Positions 6,316 through 63,775 of a DNA stretch of 64,000 nucleotides are shown piece after piece. Source of the DNA: Lytechinus pictus (lineage: Eukaryota). The notes beneath the pieces were generated by a model, which had not been told where the DNA came from, did not search any database, and worked only from the letters and a program-made list of their open reading frames with translations. Location: assembly GCF_037042905.1 (NCBI RefSeq), contig NC_087251.1:15316001-15380000 (forward strand), given 5' to 3'. Both the position numbers and the translations under genes were made by a program. Numbering within the stretch: the stretch's first letter is position 1; each line of letters opens with the position of its first letter.

Positions 6316-8761
6316 GGCAAGACAATAAATACAATCAAACATCTACATGTATACCACTAATGACAATGTAATTCATACCATGTGCATATACACCACTTGT
6401 TCACTGCAACCACCCTGCCTGTAGGGAATCCACAGGTTGGACTATGGCATGCCAATGCTGTACAGAGCACACTCTTTAAAAATGATTAAAATATCACTTT
6501 TGTGACCAAAAATAATTTTTGTATTCACTATAGCGCTCAAAAACTTGAATATTGGGCATATTTTTGTGTACGCCCTCTATTGGTGGAAAATAATATGGCA
6601 AGAAAATGTTCATTTTTTAATCTCTATTTTAATTAAGAAAAAAATAATTTAAAGAATCAAATTTACTTAAGGGCCAAGTTGTATGACGAATAGGTTAATG
6701 GAAACTGTCAGTGTAAAAAAATCAAGCATTTGTCCCAAAGAAAAAGAGAAAATAAGCCAAACATTGCCATCCTTATTTTGCCACACATGGAGATATAACT
6801 GAGAACAAGGTTATATCATAACCTTGTTCATTGAATGAGTGATATACACTAGTGCATGCAATAACAAGATTATACACAACGCATTTTTAATAAGACACTA
6901 AAAAATATTAGAGGTATTCCTACCAGATATTCATTTTTTAACCTGGGTCGAAAGTGGCAAACACAGATTAACGTTTTACTGAAGGAAATATACTGCTCAA
7001 CCATTTAGTTAAATGTTTTGGGACATACATACACTAGACCAACACATACTAATTCTATTGTGCATGGAATTTAATAGTTGCATATTGAAATGCGCTTATT
7101 TCTTCCTGCATGATCCAAGGCCCAAATGAAGATTGTGAATATAATTGTAATGAATGTATTAAGGTGTGTTTATGAACCTATATTAGAAATAAGCTATTAA
7201 ATACAGATTATTTCATATTTAATAATCTGTAAATTCCTTATGGTATCTAAAATGCACCACACTCTGAATTTTAGAAATACCTTTCAAACATACATTAATT
7301 TACATTATCGATACTGTACATAGTTACAAGGTTATCCACTCATCTCTTACTAAAGACATATCCTTTATTTGCTTTCATCTGCTACATTGTACCATTCTCT
7401 ATATCGTTATGAATTCAAAAGCTGTTTTAAAAGTTTCATTTCAGTTTAAAAGAAAAGAAAATTCAATGCAAGAGAAAATATCAGTATGCAAAAATTCTGT
7501 GTGATTAACATTTCTCTTTCTAATTTCCCTGAGTTTTCAATTGTTTAGATATGTGATGGAATCATGATTACATATTAATGATAATCAGTGTGTATGTATG
7601 TGTTTTTAATGGCTTGGAACAGAATGAGACAGAATAAATGATTGCAAAAATTAATTTGAAAATTTTTTGTTTAATTTTAGGCTATTTTTTAAAAACTGTT
7701 TAGAAGAAGTTGCGATGGGTTTTAATTGATATGATGATACACTTTTCAATTCTACACATATGGCCTAAATTAGAGCCATGTTGCTTTGAAGTTATTAATA
7801 TGATCAACTGTCATCCAATGGTAACTTCCATGAAATCCTTCATTTTGATTGGCCGCTGAGCATTGTTGATGGCAAAGTTACTATGATTGTGTAAAGTTGT
7901 TAAGTTTGCGAAACGGCTCTGATCTGCTTTGCTCTTGAGATGTCATAAGATACATGTAGTTTGATAATGCAGTGGCAAAAAAAACATGCTTTAGTTGCTA
8001 GGTTAAAGAATATTGAAAGAGACATTTAAAGAAATGTTGATAATGTTGCCAATAGCAATGTTATATACAAATAGTAAGATCAAAGTTTGTCAAGACGAAG
8101 GAATCTTGTCTTGATATATGAAACCCTCATGCATGGTGATGCAAAGTGACTGCATTCTTTCATCCAGTACCACCCTAAAGTGTGGAAATGCTTTGATGTA
8201 ATGTACATTGATGAAAGCGCCAGCAGATTAATGAATTATTTTGTCTAACTGCCCAATGCTCAAGCCATTGCAATAGCAATTTATGTGCTCTCTTCCATGC
8301 ATGCATTTTTCAATAATCATGAATGCATTTTTCAATAATCATGAATGCATTTATGATATTTTTTTAGTACAAATTATCTAAATATGGGAATGTTGACAAT
8401 TTAGGTTCATGATAAAATCTGAAATGATGAAGGATGATACAGAAGTTTTCATTAATTCTAAACTATCTAAAACGTTTTGAAATCTTTCTTTTGTCAAATT
8501 TATCTCATGAATTGAGAGCAAACATGTCCATGTTTAAACCATTGAATAAATTAGTCATTATGAATTGAAAATTTGATAATGGATATAATCTAGTGAGGGA
8601 TGTTTTACATGCATTTGCATGTGTATTGCATAATGCATTTTCCAACTTCCAGTATCAAAGGCTCTTAACCCATGGAATGTGAAACTCTCTAATTTCCATA
8701 GACTTTCTATCTTTCTCAATCATGAATTGTATTTGATTTTTTGTAATTGTTTTTCTTTCAG

Positions 8762-22589: not shown

Positions 22590-22693
22590 AGATGAGATTG
22601 ACTACTTGTTGAAGTGTGCTGATAGGAATAACGATGGAAGGATCGATTTCAACGAATTCACAGAGAGATTCCATGGACCTGCCCAAGATATCG
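22590..22693 (+). CDS. RyR: RyR exon, EF-hand 2: DEIDYLLKCADRNNDGRIDFNEFTERFHGPAQDI(G)
   Basis: caatag / GTATGG. Confidence 0.97.
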
Positions 22694-23059
22694 GTATGGA
22701 AAATATGACATTCCTAATACAGTTTCATTTACTGAATTAATACTGCACCTACTCATAGAATTTTGAAGAAAAAAAAACTCTTTATCACAATCCTAAACCA
22801 AATCTATTTTCTGTAAATAAATTAAGAAGGAACCTTTGTTTCATTTGAGTAAATGTGGGTCATCTTCTTTTACATCTTCTAGTTTTATCAAGGTGACCAT
22901 TCTATAGTAGCTACATGCACACAGTCAAGGTACTGATTATTCATGTGTATTGGGTACATTTATGAAGTTGTAATAATGAATATTTATTCTTATTCTATTT
23001 TGAATCACTAAATCTCTATTTGATTCATTTATCTTTTACTAATAACAGAATAAAATTAA

Positions 23060-24761: not shown

Positions 24762-25229
<468 letters not shown>

Positions 25230-25346
25230 ATTTTGAATGTCCATAAATTATTGTAACTTGTACTCTTTCTCGATATTTCCAAGAGAGTGCAACCAATCTT
25301 GTATCGTTTTAATCATTTCTTTTATTGTATATTTTGGCACCTACAG

Positions 25347-50301: not shown

Positions 50302-50384
50302 GTAAATTTAAACTTGATAATGATATCATAATAATTATCAAAAATATGAAAGGACTGATGTTATAAAAATATCTACATATGTTA

Positions 50385-50486
50385 TGGATGATAATGAAAG
50401 TAGTCTTAAAAATAGTAATAATAATGATAATGATAATAATGATGATAATGATGGTGATGATGATGATGGTGATGATGATGATGATG

Positions 50487-50524
<38 letters not shown>

Positions 50525-50545
50525 ATAATAATCAATGATAGTAGA
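50385..50545. repeat. (GAT/AAT)n microsatellite
   Basis: Direct reading. Confidence 0.9.
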
Positions 50546-50672
50546 AATTGTAATAATGAGAATGGTATTGGTTTTATTGTTAATGGAAGAATGACTGCAA
50601 TGATGAAATTCTTTATATTCATTAGTGTTTCTGTAGATATATATATTTTCACAGTACATTTTCTCCATACAG

Positions 50673-50759
50673 AGTCTGTTTGCTAGGAACTTCTACAACA
50701 TCAAATATATTGCTCTTGCATTGGTCTTCTGTATAAACTTCCTTCTTCTCTTCTTCAAG
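50673..50759 (+). CDS. RyR: RyR exon, S1: [29 protein letters not shown]
   Basis: atacag / GTATTC; matches RNFY...AINFILLFYK. Confidence 0.96.
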
Positions 50760-51365
50760 GTATTCATTTCATTACATGGAATGAGCATGATTGTGATGGT
50801 GATTTTAAGTAATTGATAAAAATGTATTTTGATGGTGATAATTGTTTTGATTATCATGATTATTGTAATGTTAATATTTCTTTACAAATCTGATATGGAT
50901 GGGAAATTGCAATGATGATGAATCGATATATGTTAACAAACAAAATTGATATTAGCAAGTGTAATGGTTATTAAGGTAGTGGATAATAACACTTATGTCA
51001 TGACTGAATAATATATATGATGGTTGTAATGAGGATTATGCTATAAGTTGAATCAAATTATTGCTATTGAAATGGATGATTGTGATTGTGATAATTGTAG
51101 TTATATTATTTATTACAAATGATGATGAATGTAATGATGAATAGATATATTGTTCCAAATATAAAAAAAAAATATTGATTGATGATGTACAAGCAATGAA
51201 TATTAGTGATTATTGATATGATAATGGATATATTATTATATGGCCTCCATCATAAAGATTTATAGTTGATTGCAATTGGTAAGAAAAGTCATTCACAATT
51301 TAAATTAGTTTTAGAGCTTTATGAGATGGTGGAAGTCTATTCTAAGTGTACTTTTATTCCATCAG

Positions 51366-51617
51366 GTTTCTTTCCTGACTGCTGACCTGAGCATGGAGGA
51401 AGTAGATCCAGAGCTCCCTGCAGAGTTCCTAGAGAATTCCACCTCACCTGATAGTCCAGATACAGGAGATGGTGAAGATGGATCAACGATAGATGATGTG
51501 ATAGAACAGATTCTTATCAATCAGCAGTTCATGTATCTTGTACCTATCTTGAATGTTCTTTCCATCCTTCATTCATTGGTGTCTATCTCTATGCTGATTG
51601 CATACTGTGCACTCAAG
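51366..51617 (+). CDS. RyR: RyR exon, S1-S2 luminal loop and S2: VSFLTADL...HSLVSISMLIAYCALK
   Basis: atcag / GTAAGT. Confidence 0.95.
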
Positions 51618-51814
51618 GTAAGTCCATTCATATTTTCCATCAGGTTTGGTGTTGGTGCTCTCAATATTGTGTGTGTGGGTGAATATTGACATGTGGTTGC
51701 TAAATAATGTGGGGTATGGATAAGAAAATCATTTTTTAATAGCTTGGTGTTGTGTTCTACTCATTTTATGTGTTGCTGTGTATTTTGATATATAGAATTG
51801 ATTTTTCAGGCCTG

Positions 51815-54701: not shown

Positions 54702-54848
54702 TCTTTTTTGTACATTGCTTGGTACCTTCTCTTCTCACTTCTCGGCCATGTCAACCACTTCTTCTTTGCTGCTCATCTCCTTGACATCGCCATGGGCTTC
54801 AAGACACTCAGGACTGTCCTTCAGTCTGTCACGCACAATGGCAAACAG
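54702..54848 (+). CDS. RyR: RyR exon, S3-S4 and S4-S5 linker: [16 protein letters not shown]...[25 protein letters not shown]
   Basis: ttttcag / GTTAGT. Confidence 0.98.
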
Positions 54849-55031: not shown

Positions 55032-55163
55032 TTGGTGCTTACCCTGATGATGACCTGTGTGATCATCTACCTGTACACAGTCGTTGCCTTTAACTTCTTC
55101 AGGAAGTTCTACACCAAAGACGAAGAGGGAGAGATAGATTATAAATGCCACAATATGATGTCT
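55032..55163 (+). CDS. RyR: RyR exon, S5: [44 protein letters not shown]
   Basis: gtgcag / GTAAGT. Confidence 0.98.
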
Positions 55164-55342
55164 GTAAGTATTATCCGTTTTCAATGTTTCTACCAATTTT
55201 TTAGTCTCTCTAGCTATGAAACCAAGTAGAAAATTAAGTCGAGATTGATTAAAAGATGTCTGTTGGTATAACAAGGGAAGCAGATGTGTGGAATTTAGCA
55301 GGGGTCGGAAGGGAGCAAAAATTGTTGTTCAATATACTTTTT

Positions 55343-56307
55343 TGGATGGATGGATGGATGGGTGGGTGGGTGGATGGGTGGATGGGTGGATGGGTGGGTG
55401 GGTGGATGGATGGATGGATGGATGGATGGATGGATGGATGGATGGATGGATGGATGGATGGATGGATGGATGGATGGATGGATGGATGGATGGATGGATG
55501 GATGGATGGATGGATGGATGGATGGATGGATGGATGGATGGATGGATGGATGGATGGATGGATGGATGGATGGATGGATGGATGGATGGATGGATGGATG
55601 GATGGATGGATGGATGGATGGATGGATGGATGGATGGATGGATGGATGGATGGATGGATGGATGGATGGATGGATGGATGGATGGATGGATGGATGGATG
55701 GATGGATGGATGGATGGATGGATGGATGGATGGATGGATGGATGGATGGATGGATGGATGGATGGATGGATGGATGGATGGATGGATGGATGGATGGATG
55801 GATGGATGGATGGATGGATGGATGGATGGATGGATGGATGGATGGATGGATGGATGGATGGATGGATGGATGGATGGATGGATGGATGGATGGATGGATG
55901 GATGGATGGATGGATGGATGGATGGATGGATGGATGGATGGATGGATGGATGGATGGATGGATGGATGGATGGATGGATGGATGGATGGATGGATGGATG
56001 GATGGATGGATGGATGGATGGATGGATGGATGGATGGATGGATGGATGGATGGATGGATGGATGGATGGATGGATGGATGGATGGATGGATGGATGGATG
56101 GATGGATGGATGGATGGATGGATGGATGGATGGATGGATGGATGGATGGATGGATGGATGGATGGATGGATGGATGGATGGGTGGGTGGGTGGGTGGGTG
56201 GGTGGGTGGGGTGGGGTGGGGTGGGGTGGGGTGGGGTGGGGTGGGGTGGGATGGGATGGGATGGGATGGGATGGGATGGGATGGGATGGGATGGGATGGG
56301 ATGGGAT
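55343..56307. repeat. ~1 kb (GGAT)n tetranucleotide array grading into (GGGT)n, (GGGGT)n and (GGGAT)n
   Basis: Direct reading; source of the WMDG/HPSI ORFs. Confidence 0.98.
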
Positions 56308-56670
56308 GTGGGTGGCGAAGAGAGTGAGTGATTTGTCCATGAGTGATGCTCATACTGCGTGCAGCGTTTCAATAGAACATGGTGAAAGCGGATCTCGTAT
56401 TTTAGTTATATTTCTCTAAAAATGATTTTAAAAATGATCATAACTCAGTAGATTAACTTGCAGTAGAAATCAATACAAATTTCATATAATTTATGTTTAT
56501 GAATTTCTTATATTTTATGCATCCTTGTCCTTGCACATGTTGTTCATTTGAGGTTAGATTATTATTCTGAGTAGTTGAAGCACATCTGCATCTATTTCCA
56601 TAAATTTGCCTTATGCTATATCTGAAATTTTGGAGCTTATTTTTTGTTTACTTTGTTAATCTATTTGCAG

Positions 56671-56719
56671 TGTTTTGTCTTCCATCTTCATTCTGGTTTA
56701 AGAGCTGGTGGTGGCATTG
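56671..56719 (+). CDS. RyR: RyR exon, pore helix/filter: CFVFHLHSGLRAGGGI(A)
   Basis: ttgcag / GTAAGT; phase 0->1. Confidence 0.97.
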
Positions 56720-58007
56720 GTAAGTAAATCAAAAAGAGGAAAAAAAGTTGAATGAAAGTTGTTGAAGAGATAGGAGGGTGAGGGTGTGTGTGTGCATTTA
56801 CTAATTGAACTGGAGAGAAAACATTTCAATAATGAAAAAGTTATTTAGAATGAAATTTCTTGAATGAACACATTATGTAATTGTTTATATTGCTGAGTGA
56901 GGGTGTTTATATATGTGTCTCTCTCTCCCCATCCCCCCCTCTCTCTCTCTCTCTCTCTCTATGTACACATGCATTCAATAGACATCTTGCAAGCCCAAAT
57001 GTGGTTGGTAGTTATCAGAATAGAGAATGTAAAGAATGATTAAACATTGAAAAGGAAGTAAGGTGTGGTCACCTTTGTATTACAAATAAGTTGTATGTGG
57101 GGATGGATAAGTGGATGAGCTTTGTGTATGTGGGTGTAGAGGTGTTCTAGGTGGGTAGATAAAATACTGGAGATGCAGAAATTATGTCTATTATCATTTC
57201 ATATACATTAAATGTATAGTATTGATCTTCCTATATCAATATGTATGTATGTGTCAATGTCTTTCATCTTTATGCCTCTGCCTGACATCAGCGGGAGTAA
57301 AATAGCTTGCTCTTTAACTTCATGCCATGTACGCATGGTATTTGGTTCATGTATATGATCGTGAAGATGATAAAAAAGTAGTAAATTTGGGATTATAATG
57401 GTGTAGGTCAAGGTCATAGGTAAACTAACTTCAGAATTTTGATTGTACTTATAATAAGTTAATAGTTATTATTTGATATCTTTACTTCCATGCTTGGCTG
57501 ATGTTTTATTATGGCTGTGACATTGACCTGACTAAACATTATGTATATGAGGTCATAGGTCATAGGTCATTTTATAGTAAGTAAGTATGTTGTTGACTGA
57601 TCAACCTCATACTTGACTCATGTGTGTATGAGAGTAACAATAATTGATTAGATTTTAGAATCATAGGATCGGGTTTGCACCATGAAATTATCTAATTAGT
57701 CATCGGTTTAAAGATCAGAATGTCTGCGTCATTATGAACTTGATTGTGAGGTCAAAGGTCAAATTCCTTTATTAAACATATCTAAAGTCACTTATGATAA
57801 GTTTTGAACCAGTTGGTGAATAGAAGTGAGATTTCATTCATTTCTGTATATGATCCTACACATTTTATAAGATCAAATTGCACATGTCACAGAGCTCGTT
57901 ATCAAATATGAGGTCCCGTTTTTGTTATATTCTTGAGAAAATTCTACAGTATGCAGAAATGGCAAAGATTTAATATAAACAAAATAATTGTTACTTTTTT
58001 AATGCAG

Positions 58008-58115
58008 CTGATGAGATAGAACCACCTGACGGTGATGACTATGAGCTCTACCGGATCATCTTTGACATCACCTTCTTTTTCTTTGTCATTGTCATTCTTC
58101 TTGCCATCATCCAGG
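58008..58115 (+). CDS. RyR: RyR exon, S6: (A)[35 protein letters not shown](G)
   Basis: aatgcag / GTATGT. Confidence 0.98.
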
Positions 58116-59088
58116 GTATGTCCATTCTGGAAACAGAAAGAAGATCAGGGTGCAAGTCATTGTTAAAATGCAATGATTTGCCCCTCTGTTTTTTCATCTT
58201 TTATTCCTTTTTTAAAAAAATTGTACTTCTCATGTTTTTATCATATTTTTTTTATTTCTCAAGTTTTATTTTTATACATATTTTTGTGGGGTTTTTTTTA
58301 TTTGGTTATTTGCTTTGTATATTTGAATTTTTGTTGCTTTTTTTAGTTTCATGTTTGATTCATAATTAATTTGTATTTTTGGGGGTTTGTAATTTAGTTC
58401 TTTTATTTTATTTTATCATTTTATTCATTATTTGTTTATTTAGTATTGTTGTATTTTTATAATTTTAAAATTTATTGTATTCTTTTTCTGTTTGGATTTT
58501 CTTTCGGCAGGGGGGGGGGGGAAGGTTTCAGATCATACAGATAACACTGCTTTTAGAAACTTTTAGTGAGGCATTGGTTATGTTCTCCTCTTGGTTAAGT
58601 CACTGTAAACCAACAGATAAGGGGTTCATATTCCTGCTGCAGTGCTTTGAATTATTTGGCAAGACATTAATCTACTTTTGCTTTATTTAACAAAGGTGTG
58701 TTAATTGATTATCTTGTTTTCACTAGTAAATATTTTCCTTGAATGCACCAAGTGCTAAAAACTCTGGCATTATAGAAATAGAGACATGGTGATGATATTT
58801 TTATCTATACAACATCATATTATTTTGAGAAGAAATTTGCCATGTAACATGAAAAATACATGTACAGTGAATCATTCAATTGAACTTAACTTTAAGTCAA
58901 TGGCAAGCAATGTACCAGTCTATCACTAATAATCTTGTCTCTATATGTTACATTTCCTGACATTTACTCCGGTATTAATTAGTCTGAAGGTTAGTTAGGT
59001 TTAGAATTCAAACAAATACATGTTGAATTTTTGATGACATGTCTTGTGGAATAGTAATTGGATGATCTTGTTTCTATCGCTGTTTCAG

Positions 59089-59153
59089 GTCTGATCATTG
59101 ATGCCTTTGGTGAATTGAGAGATCAGCTGGAGCAGGTCAAAGAGGACATGGAG
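59089..59153 (+). CDS. RyR: RyR exon: (G)[21 protein letters not shown]
   Basis: tttcag / GTAAGA. Confidence 0.98.
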
Positions 59154-59550
59154 GTAAGATTTCCTTAAATCTCATGGGCTGTGTGCACGAGACCATCTTT
59201 TACAGTAGTCAAAGGTCGAAGTAATTAAAAATTAGAGAAATTATAAAATGGACATTGAGTTGGTGTGAGAAGATGCTTGTTGTGCAGACCATAAAACAGG
59301 GAAAATGGTATGAAGCCTGCTGTTTGTTTTATAGTTGTATAGTTTTTTATTGATTTTTTAATGTTATCTTTCGTTTCTTTTTCTTTCAGTAGTTTTATCC
59401 ACTCAATTCACTTCTGGTATATGATTAGGAATACAAATTTGAGGGGTTCCAATGAATTTTATTGTTCATTTGATTTGTAAATTTTCAATTCCTTATGTTT
59501 TATGTTGGGTTAGTAATTTGCCACACTCAATTCATCTTATTTATCCACAG

Positions 59551-59651
59551 ACCAAGTGTTTCATATGTAGCATTGGGAGGGAGTATTTTGATAAGCTTCC
59601 TCATGGATTTGAGCTACACACATCTAAGGAGCATGATCTCTCCAATTACAT
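59551..59651 (+). CDS. RyR: RyR exon, CTD Zn finger: [33 protein letters not shown](M)
   Basis: ccacag / GTAAGT; C-x2-C...H...H motif. Confidence 0.98.
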
Positions 59652-60788
59652 GTAAGTATTGGCAGTTATCACAGTGTGTGCTTCAACGTTCTCGCTACCA
59701 CGGGTCACGGTTGGCGGGCACCGCCAACCCTGAAAATTTTCAGAGCAAATCCGCCAACCGTGAACTTCCCCGACAACTGTAAAACAGGCCTAGATCTACA
59801 CAAAAAAATGAATAATATATTTAAAAAAAAAACAATCTGCTTTTCAGATCCTAAAATAAACTTGTCGATTATTTCGTCACAGATTTCTTCCCAGGATTTC
59901 TTTGACTCGCTACTAATCTGTATACGATACGACCTCGGCTCGAGGCCCGTAGGAAGCGCGAAGACGTTTACCTCGATTTGCGTATCGCATTGCTCACATT
60001 ATTTACGGTACCGGTACGTCTTTAAAATGGTAGTAAATACCGGTACGCTAAAAAATAAAGTGAGGGGAGAGGGGTACCGTGGGTTACTGGGTTGGGCAAT
60101 GTAATTTAGATGCTACGAATTTCAGTTGATATTGTCACTTATTTTGTCAAAAGTAAAGTGTCTCAAAAATAACATAAAAATTCGATCGAAACTTAGTTTC
60201 ATCTCGTCCCAGTCCCCAGCCTTGTATAGCTACATCTACATGAATTCATTGAATGCATTTCTGATGACACTGCCGTAGAGCGAATTGAGAAAATTATTAA
60301 AAGATCACGTTAATAATGTCCAACTCATTTACTTACAGCAAAATGATTTATTCACATTTATATTCCGATTTTACTCCATAATTTCCAAAGTCTTGATCTC
60401 TACATCGATCTTTTGAAAGTGTTGATTAATTTTGCGACGGTGTGTCTACCAAGTTCTGTGTCACTGCACTCGCGCTCGCCACGGCCACATAAATACAAAT
60501 CGCTCATGGCATCAAAATCCTTGATCCGCGTCTTCCAAAATTAGATGGGATCCAAAACTGATTTAATTTGAATGTTTTTTTTTTTTTTTCAGATATTCAT
60601 TGAATCTGTTATAATTTTCATAAGTAATAATCCTTATTAATATTATTCACACTTTTTATCATATTACCATTTATTTTTTATGTGAGTTATACGTAGTGTA
60701 TTTTCATTTGTATTGTTCTTTATTACTCTTTGCCTGCCAATTAAATAATGAACGGTCCTGAGAAATGTTTTTAGTCATCACAGTGAAT

Positions 60789-63723: not shown

Positions 63724-63775
63724 GTTCTTCCTAATGTACCTCATTAACAAGCCAGAGACAGAGCATACTGGCCAG
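63724..63775 (+). CDS. RyR: RyR exon (probably the penultimate coding exon): FFLMYLINKPETEHTGQ
   Basis: tgtag / GTATGT. Confidence 0.96.

What the first reader, a model, noticed from the sequence alone, without database searches (positions are those of the whole stretch)
56695..58020. Selectivity filter reads GLRAGGGI-A-DE instead of GVRAGGGI-G-DE, with the variant codon split by an intron
Seen: exon 56671-56719 ends ATT G|GTAAGT and the next acceptor is AATGCAG|CT GAT GAG, so the codon is GCT (Ala). There is no nearby in-frame alternative donor or acceptor, and I saw no duplicate exon in the intron that would restore Gly. Established: GGGIGD is nearly invariant in animal RyRs (GGGVGD/GGGIGD in IP3Rs). 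The equivalent Gly (rabbit RyR1 G4898, human G4899; numbering recalled) is a central core disease position, and filter-glycine substitutions change conductance and ryanodine binding. Inference: a natural pore variant in an otherwise intact gene, possibly with distinct conductance, selectivity or ryanodine pharmacology. A-to-I editing cannot convert GCT to GGT.
Basis: partly seen in the sequence, partly recalled or inferred. Interest (0 to 1): 0.8.

Follow-up and report, generated by a model that had tools for sequence, protein, structure and literature searches.

The report
Sea-urchin ryanodine receptor, alanine in pore filter
The only ryanodine-receptor calcium-release channel gene of this sea urchin really does encode alanine where almost all animals have a glycine in the pore's ion filter, and distant relatives share the change, so it is an old natural variant whose effect on the channel has not been measured.

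Summary
Exon 56671-56719 ends ATT G|GTAAGT. The next exon starts at 58008 after AATGCAG|, so the split codon is G+CT = Ala and the filter reads GLRAGGGI-A-DE.

A spliced 5191-nt contig from public run X7 joins exactly these exons with no mismatch. The downstream exon occurs once in the 812-Mb genome. The Ala aligns with G4898 of rabbit RyR1 and G4828 of human RyR2.

It is not an error or a private mutation:
- P0141, an unnamed transcript-derived relative (86% identical over 219 residues), also reads HSGLRAGGGIADE.
- A second genome fragment, L004, has the same phase-1 intron followed by CT GAT GAG. It differs at 18 of 108 exon bases, 15 of them third positions.
- A separate long-branch RyR lineage (P0353, P0356) also has GGGIADE.
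- Of 264 RyR filters sampled, 261 have Gly and 3 have Ala.

The genome is a sea urchin's (Bindin hit).

Most likely this is a working channel. The Asp-Glu pair is intact and Ala tunes the filter loop at most modestly; function was not tested. Text searches found no mention of GGGIAD. I could not retrieve named echinoderm RyR records or the published sea-urchin cDNA.

The parts
54702..54848 (+). RyR exon encoding [49 protein letters not shown] (transmembrane region before the pore)
   Evidence: tblastn with P0037 and P0141; splice sites read; junction to the next exon
55032..55163 (+). RyR exon encoding [44 protein letters not shown] (S5 and start of the luminal loop)
   Evidence: its last 30 bases are the loose end of the X7 contig before 56671
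56671..56719 (+). 49-nt exon: pore-helix end and filter CFVFHLHSGLRAGGGI, plus the first base (G) of the variant codon
   Evidence: covered by X7 contig record 25 with 0 other letters
56720..58007 (+). Phase-1 intron of 1288 nt (GTAAGT...AATGCAG) that splits the variant codon
   Evidence: joint 56718->58007 'skips 1288, GT..AG (cut +1)'; same intron position in L004 and in 7 Gly-bearing genomic fragments
58008..58009 (+). Bases CT which, with G at 56719, make the GCT (Ala) codon at the position of RyR1 G4898
   Evidence: CT is also present after the acceptor in L004
58008..58115 (+). Exon encoding (A)[35 protein letters not shown](G): acidic filter pair and the S6 pore-lining helix
   Evidence: single copy; E 3.6e-14 to RyR1 chains
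59089..59153 (+). Exon encoding [21 protein letters not shown] (S6 cytoplasmic extension)
   Evidence: joint 58114->59088 GT..AG
59551..59651 (+). Exon encoding [34 protein letters not shown] (C-terminal Cys/His region)
   Evidence: joint 59151->59549 GT..AG
63724..63775 (+). Exon encoding FFLMYLINKPETEHTGQ; its end was not defined, and the gene runs past the window's end
   Evidence: matches the X7 contig's loose end behind 59653
51348..51638 (+). Core of an upstream RyR exon (lineage-specific acidic loop plus a membrane helix); boundaries approximate
   Evidence: Pfam RR_TM4-6, 42.3 bits against a cut-off of 25.1

Best explanation
This is the C-terminal pore region of the single ryanodine-receptor gene of a sea urchin. 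A phase-1 intron splits the fifth codon of the GGGIGDE filter, and ordinary GT-AG splicing gives GCT, so the protein reads GLRAGGGIADE. The Ala is an old substitution, fixed and kept under purifying selection in this deuterostome-invertebrate lineage. It is neither an error nor a private allele. The channel most likely works as a normal cation and Ca2+ release channel. The Asp-Glu pair, the three leading glycines and the S6 helix are all canonical. The extra methyl group next to the Ile that couples the filter to S6 probably stiffens the filter loop slightly, and any change in conductance or gating is probably modest. Shown here: the sequence, the splicing, single-copy status, conservation in relatives and homology of the position. 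Inferred: that the channel is functional and that the effect is small.
For: Sequence and splice sites. Spliced contig with 0 mismatches over four exons and three GT..AG joints. Single copy in the genome. Position homologous to RyR1 G4898 and RyR2 G4828. RyR identity: RR_TM4-6 at 42.3 bits and an EF-hand in window exons; PDB RyR1/2/3 at E about 4e-14. Conservation: P0141 reads HSGLRAGGGIADE, is 86.3% identical over 219 residues, and groups with the window at SH-aLRT 99. L004 has the same intron and CT GAT GAG; 18 of 108 exon bases differ, 15 at third positions, and 34 of 36 residues are identical. For scale, over the same alignment, insect vs scorpion is 92.5% and vertebrate RyR1 vs RyR2 is 91.2%, so the window-P0141 split is deep. 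Sea-urchin origin: Pfam Bindin at 236.7 bits in the own genome and in none of 14 control genomes. Structural plausibility: the RyR1 filter is wide (8.8 to 16.7 A at G4894) and mobile, with selection ascribed to the D4899/E4900 field (PMC5034117 passages).
Against: No functional measurement exists here. Gly at this site is otherwise very strongly conserved, 261 of 264 sampled filters and 114 of 116 in the pore alignment, which argues that the site is not freely replaceable. In mammals G4898R abolishes Ca2+ permeation, caffeine response and ryanodine binding (PMC2668181 passages), and RyR2 G4828R was found in a cardiac-arrest patient (PMC12962230 passages). The window and P0141 share several other substitutions at columns invariant elsewhere: V to L in GLRAGGG, 0 of 114 Gly rows in that alignment, and others. 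The pore may therefore have changed as a set, with a real change in function. Only three members of the clade were seen, and two are unnamed. The expression evidence is one contig from one run whose RNA label is a guess.
Confidence: 0.75

Rival explanations
1. The Ala is functionally important. Together with the clade's other pore-loop changes, it gives this RyR a clearly different conductance, Ca2+/monovalent selectivity, gating or ryanodine sensitivity, perhaps suited to egg Ca2+ signalling.
For: The site is almost invariant elsewhere. It lies next to I4897, described as the link between filter and S6 (PMC13062998 passage). The window and P0141 share unique changes at otherwise invariant pore columns. 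Ala also occurs in a second RyR lineage, P0353/P0356, which could mean convergence.
Against: Gly to Ala is the smallest possible side-chain change. The charged D-E pair and G4894-equivalent constriction are unchanged. P0353 and P0356 carry Ala without the V-to-L change, so the changes are not an obligate set. Nothing was measured.
Confidence: 0.2
2. The Ala is an artefact: a base error at 58008 or a wrongly placed splice junction.
For: The codon depends on one base. Shifting both splice borders by +1 or +2 to non-canonical sites would read GGT (sequence).
Against: The X7 contig has 0 mismatches and reads ATT GCT GAT. L004 from another species has CT at the same place. P0141's transcript-derived protein has Ala. 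No canonical alternative gives Gly.
Confidence: 0.02
3. A minor isoform restores Gly, through non-canonical splicing or an unseen alternative exon, and the Ala form is not the only channel made.
For: Logan contigs drop rare variants, so a minor isoform could be missed (tool note).
Against: There is no second copy of the exon in the window or the genome. The borders needed would be TA..GC or AA..CT. Conservation of CT in L004 and of Ala in P0141 shows that the Ala form is the one under selection.
Confidence: 0.03

Closest known systems
Mammalian ryanodine receptors (rabbit RyR1, e.g. PDB 5gky; RyR2; RyR3)
   Same: The exon after the filter is 31 of 37 identical to RyR1 residues 4898-4934 (E 3.6e-14). 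About 76% identity over 219 pore-region residues to two vertebrate RyR fragments. Same order of domains: EF-hand, RR_TM4-6, pore, C-terminal Cys/His region.
   Different: Ala where RyR1 has G4898 and RyR2 has G4828. Leu where they have V4891. The codon is split by a phase-1 intron that the vertebrate and arthropod genomic fragments sampled do not have.
Human and rabbit disease mutants at the same residue (RyR1 G4898E/R in central core disease; RyR2 G4828R)
   Same: The same residue of the filter is replaced.
   Different: The disease mutants introduce large charged side chains. G4898R loses Ca2+ permeation, caffeine response and ryanodine binding (PMC2668181 passages; PMC12962230 passages). 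Here the change is to Ala, it is fixed in a lineage, and it sits in the organism's only RyR gene.
Unnamed relatives with the same filter: P0141 (Logan transcript contig), L004 (contig JAAUXV010114948.1), P0353 and P0356
   Same: All encode Ala at this position. P0141 and L004 also share the window's lineage-specific residues, and L004 shares the intron position.
   Different: P0353 and P0356 keep Val (GVRAGGGIADE), have a divergent S6 (FDIMFFFFVVIILMAIIQG), and sit on a long branch on the vertebrate side of the tree. None of these records carries an organism name.
Published sea-urchin egg RyR cDNA (Shiwa et al. 2002) and bilayer recordings of sea-urchin egg RyRs (Lokuta et al. 1998)
   Same: Presumably the orthologue of this gene and its native channel.
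   Different: Neither could be read. For Shiwa 2002 I have only recall. For Lokuta 1998 I saw the citation in PMC6593290, but the paper is not held. Whether they show or discuss the Ala is unknown to me.

Membership tests
Ryanodine receptor (RyR) family | RR_TM4-6 domain (Pfam PF06459) | tested here: met
   Window exon 51348-51638 scores 42.3 bits against a cut-off of 25.1; relative P0141 scores 117.4 bits
Ryanodine receptor (RyR) family | Six-TM-type pore domain (S5, pore helix, filter, S6) homologous to solved RyR structures | tested here: met
   E 3.6e-14 to RyR1 residues 4898-4934; all 39 matched distinct PDB sequences are RyR1, RyR2 or RyR3. Ion_trans scores 70.4 bits in P0141. The single 40-residue window piece scores only 15.6 bits, below the cut-off
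Ryanodine receptor (RyR) family | EF-hand pair upstream of the transmembrane region | tested here: met
   Window 22591-22719: EF-hand_1 28.1 bits (cut-off 25.4) and EF-hand_8 29.7 bits (cut-off 28)
Ryanodine receptor (RyR) family | Canonical filter motif GGGIGDE | tested here: not met
   Six of seven residues match; the fifth is Ala. The acidic D-E pair is kept. This is the finding itself and does not remove the gene from the family
Ryanodine receptor (RyR) family | C-terminal Cys/His (zinc-finger-like) region after S6 | tested here: met
   [26 protein letters not shown] in exon 59551-59651 aligns with the same segment of all relatives. That this is the zinc-binding pattern is recalled; PMC5034117 calls the CTD zinc-finger-like
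Ryanodine receptor (RyR) family | N-terminal MIR, RIH, SPRY and RyR-repeat domains | not tested
   These lie upstream of the part studied; the window starts inside the gene (first match at 8761)
Ryanodine receptor (RyR) family | Ryanodine binding and Ca2+-activated Ca2+ release | not testable with these tools
   Needs expression, [3H]ryanodine binding and single-channel recording

The most novel reading that the evidence does not exclude
GGGIADE is a distinct, functionally tuned RyR filter. It was fixed deep in the echinoderm-side lineage and arose a second time in another invertebrate deuterostome lineage (P0353/P0356). It measurably changes unitary conductance, divalent/monovalent selectivity, or filter-to-S6 coupling and ryanodine action. 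That would make sea-urchin RyR a natural experiment at a disease hotspot residue.
Probability: 0.2. Interest if true: 0.65.

Novelty: new variant of a known kind. Interest (0 to 1): 0.45.

Why it matters
The GGGIGD filter is treated as invariant in RyRs, and substitutions at this glycine cause central core disease (RyR1); a substitution at the equivalent RyR2 glycine was found in a cardiac-arrest patient. A lineage that has lived for a very long time with Ala there, in its only RyR gene, shows what the site tolerates. It also offers a ready-made test of how filter-loop flexibility next to I4897 affects conductance, selectivity and ryanodine action. Sea-urchin eggs are a classical system for ryanodine- and cADPR-sensitive Ca2+ release, so knowing that their channel has a non-canonical filter matters when those data are compared with mammalian RyRs. 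The likely outcome is a modest effect, which limits the surprise.

Tried and rejected
1. Reaching full-length (about 5000-aa) named echinoderm RyRs failed. The word-index search only reached proteins of 71-2000 aa, 231-2000 aa and 256-818 aa.

2. The search of 1.84 billion representatives with the lineage-specific exon gave 57 hits. All but one were fragments under 400 aa, and the 948-aa exception matched at only 26% identity. The best was P0226, 94 aa and 69% identical; there was no full-length relative. I therefore could not tabulate the residue in named echinoderms, hemichordates, tunicates or amphioxus.

3. The cluster look-up gave no names for P0141, P0353, P0356 or P0226.

4. Sequencing runs: no listed holder is on record as RNA, and all nine listed runs held only 0.06-0.07 of the words. 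X1, X3 and X6 (organism A) lay only on intronic repeats at 90-95% likeness and say nothing about the codon.

5. Papers not held: Gao 2000, Zhao 1999 and Lokuta 1998. I could not see whether G-to-A at this residue was already tested in the RyR2 alanine scan, nor the native sea-urchin channel's conductance. My recollection that Zhao 1999 scanned the whole GVRAGGGIGD motif is unverified.

6. Text searches for GGGIAD, GGIADE, RAGGGIA and GLRAGGG gave 0 relevant papers. Searches for G4898A, G4828A and G4899A gave only a table entry 'G4899A' in a review, which may be a slip. Sequences shown only in figures cannot be searched.

7. Earlier scan notes held nothing on this locus.

8. One origin or two for Ala is undecided. 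The free tree separates the two Ala groups. Forcing all four Ala rows into one clade costs 16.2 lnL, with p-AU 0.094. That is not rejected, and the group was named after the tree was seen.

9. No tRNA gene explains the high-copy repeat at 59684.

Full report
**What is there**

The window lies at C7:15316001-15380000 of an 811.7-Mb assembly in 368 contigs. A ryanodine-receptor gene runs on the + strand from at least 8761 to beyond the window's end. This was shown by tblastn with the insect RyR fragment P0037 and with the closer relative P0141.

Family identity is secure:
- Window exon 51348-51638 scores 42.3 bits on Pfam RR_TM4-6, against a cut-off of 25.1.
- Window 22591-22719 is an EF-hand.
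- The exon after the filter matches only RyR1, RyR2 and RyR3 chains in the PDB: 39 distinct sequences, best E 3.6e-14.

The pore-region gene model is 54702-54848 | 55032-55163 | 56671-56719 | 58008-58115 | 59089-59153 | 59551-59651 | 63724-... All introns are GT-AG.

**The observation**

Exon 56671-56719 reads CFVFHLHSGLRAGGGI and ends with a lone G before GTAAGT. The next exon starts after AATGCAG with CT GAT GAG and encodes [36 protein letters not shown]. The split codon is GCT, so the filter is GGGI-A-DE.

I listed every in-frame, stop-free GT-AG, GC-AG or AT-AC pairing around the intron. There are 13. None yields Gly, and only 56719/58008 keeps a full-length filter. Gly could be produced only by shifting both borders by one or two bases, to TA..GC or AA..CT, which are not splice sites.

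There is no second copy of either exon in the window (six-frame motif scan). The downstream exon has one match in the whole genome.

**Expression and base check**

Nine public runs held 6-7% of the sampled words, and I laid four of them.
- Three runs, X1, X3 and X6 (organism A), lay only on intronic repeats at 90-95% likeness. They are uninformative.
- Run X7 (organism B) holds a 5191-nt contig whose record positions 642-966 lie without a gap and with 0 other letters on 59549-59653, 59088-59151, 58007-58114 and 56671-56718.
- That contig has three GT..AG joints, and its loose ends continue into the exons at 55163 and 63724.

The transcript therefore reads ATT GCT GAT GAG. The run's 'RNA?' label is a guess by the tool. 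However, a contig lacking three introns, of a gene whose exon occurs once in the assembly, is not genomic DNA. This is one contig from one run. Contigs hide rare variants, so a minor isoform is not excluded.

**Homology of the position**

HMMER aligns the Ala with residue 4898 of the 5037-residue RyR1 chains (for example 5gky_A) and with residue 4828 of the 4967-residue RyR2 chains.

**How unusual it is**

Of the 358 proteins held after three homology searches, 265 matched a filter pattern. One of these, P0063, was a false match in an acidic stretch. Of the 264 real filters, 261 have Gly: 235 GGGIGDE, 19 GGGIGDV, 5 GGGIGDQ, 1 GGGVGDV and 1 GGGVGDE. Three have GGGIADE: P0141, P0353 and P0356. 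The other 93 proteins lacked the filter segment.

This sample is not random. It is the best 120 hits of each search, within length bands that exclude full-length RyRs.

In a 116-row pore alignment the column is 114 Gly and 2 Ala, the two being the window and P0141. That alignment excluded rows lacking an exact FFFAAHLLD anchor; the P0353/P0356 rows were among those left out.

Vertebrate and arthropod genomic fragments encode the filter in one exon. Seven fragments share the window's intron position but read x-G-D-E across the acceptor, so their codons are G|GN: P0028, P0035, P0045, P0046, P0047, P0122 and P0129. The intron is therefore old, and the C at the second codon position is the derived state.

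**It is lineage-wide**

P0141 is a 467-aa product of a 2649-nt Logan contig that is contiguous across 12 of the window's exons, so it is transcript-derived.
- It reads [36 protein letters not shown].
- It is 86.3% identical to the window over 219 residues.
- For scale, in the same alignment insect vs scorpion is 92.5% and vertebrate RyR1 vs RyR2 is 91.2%. The split between the window and P0141 is therefore deep.

A scan of metagenome contigs for DNA encoding [10 protein letters not shown][D/E] gave one hit, L004 (contig JAAUXV010114948.1, 1370 nt).
- It reads ...ttgttttccag|CT GAT GAG ATT GAA..., with the same phase-1 intron and a GTAAGT donor at the same exon end.
- Its exon differs from the window's at 18 of 108 bases, 15 of them third positions. 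The protein is 34 of 36 identical.
- That is the signature of purifying selection across a large synonymous distance, with the CT retained.

**Tree**

I built a quick maximum-likelihood tree of 61 rows: the window, 25 named proteins and 35 unnamed proteins, chosen by me from the 358 held; 372 columns were kept.
- The window and P0141 group together (SH-aLRT 99).
- They are sister (93) to a clade (98) holding the vertebrate RyRs, the Gly-bearing P0349, and the pair P0353+P0356 on a long branch (0.84).
- Forcing all four Ala rows into one clade costs 16.2 log-likelihood units, with p-AU 0.094. That is not rejected, and the group was chosen after seeing the tree, so one or two origins remain open.

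P0353 and P0356 are RyRs: RR_TM4-6 scores 29.4 and 61.9 bits. They keep Val in GVRAGGGIADE.

**Organism**

Pfam Bindin (PF02084) hits the own genome at 236.7 and 53.1 bits on C13, and hits none of 14 control genomes. Two earlier notes on other pieces of this genome also call it a sea urchin.

**How it most likely works**

From the passages I read:
- The RyR1 filter lies in the loop between pore helices P1 and P2. It is mobile and wide, 8.8 A closed and 16.7 A open at G4894. It is thought to select cations through the field of D4899 and E4900 rather than by tight coordination (PMC5034117).
- I4897 packs against S6, and the I4897-G4898 stretch is described as the link between filter and S6 (PMC13062998).
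- G4898R abolishes Ca2+ permeation, caffeine response and ryanodine binding (PMC2668181).
- RyR2 G4828R was found in a patient with cardiac arrest (PMC12962230).

In the window, the three leading glycines, Ile, Asp, Glu and S6 are all canonical. Only one methyl group is added. My best reading (0.75) is a working Ca2+ release channel in which Ala slightly stiffens the loop, with at most a modest change.

The rival reading (0.2) is a real functional shift. In its favour are the very strong conservation of Gly elsewhere and the set of unique pore-region substitutions shared by the window and P0141. The V-to-L change in GLRAGGG, for example, is seen in 0 of 114 Gly rows of that alignment, although it does occur with Gly in two flatworm rows.

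From recall only: sea-urchin eggs show ryanodine-, caffeine- and cADPR-sensitive Ca2+ release, and RyR-like channels were recorded from them (Lokuta et al. 1998). I saw the citation but the paper is not held. If my recall is right, the Ala channel conducts and binds ryanodine.

**Novelty**

Full-text searches for GGGIAD, GGIADE, RAGGGIA and GLRAGGG found no relevant paper. Alignments printed as figures cannot be searched, and I could not read the sea-urchin RyR cloning paper or the alanine-scan papers. Because the variant is lineage-wide, it must already be present in public sea-urchin RyR records. What may be new is noticing it, its depth, and its recurrence in a second lineage.

I rate it a new variant of a known kind, with moderate interest (0.45).

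Noticed in passing
window 55249-56330: An intronic (GGAT)n-type simple repeat about 1.1 kb long gives 340-390-aa open frames in all six frames (WMDG.../HPSI...). It blocked the first read-laying request.
   Followed up: no
window 59684-59800 and beyond: A high-copy interspersed repeat starts just after exon 59551-59651. Summed contig depth is in the hundreds to thousands in all four runs, from both coded organisms. ARAGORN finds no tRNA gene there.
   Followed up: partly
window 57263-57529 and 58592-59007: Contigs of organism A (runs X1, X3, X6) match these intronic stretches at 90-95% while not covering the exons. They are probably dispersed repeats shared with a related species.
   Followed up: no
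proteins P0353, P0356 (with members P0359, P0361): A second, divergent RyR lineage has GVRAGGGIADEIGDP and an unusual S6 (FDIMFFFFVVIILMAIIQGLVIDSFG). It sits on a long branch beside the vertebrate RyRs. It is unnamed and comes from contigs up to 20 kb long.
   Followed up: partly
proteins P0189, P0200 (P0200 named Macrostomum lignano by its source; P0189 unnamed): These flatworm RyR rows carry the same V-to-L change (TGLRAGGGIGDE) with the normal Gly, so Leu and Ala are separable.
   Followed up: no
G000:C13:14344741-14346105 (loci L002, L003): A two-exon Bindin (sperm-egg recognition protein) locus, 236.7 and 53.1 bits. I used it only to place the genome among sea urchins.
   Followed up: no
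window 24948-25253 and 50324-50683: Long ATG/GAT-type simple repeats in introns give poly-Met and poly-Asp open frames.
   Followed up: no
paper PMC7204063, table entry for Tilgen et al. 2001: The review lists 'G4899A' among human RYR1 core-disease mutations. I recall G4899R for that paper, so this may be a misprint. If it is correct, a human Gly-to-Ala at this very residue would be pathogenic and directly relevant.
   Followed up: no
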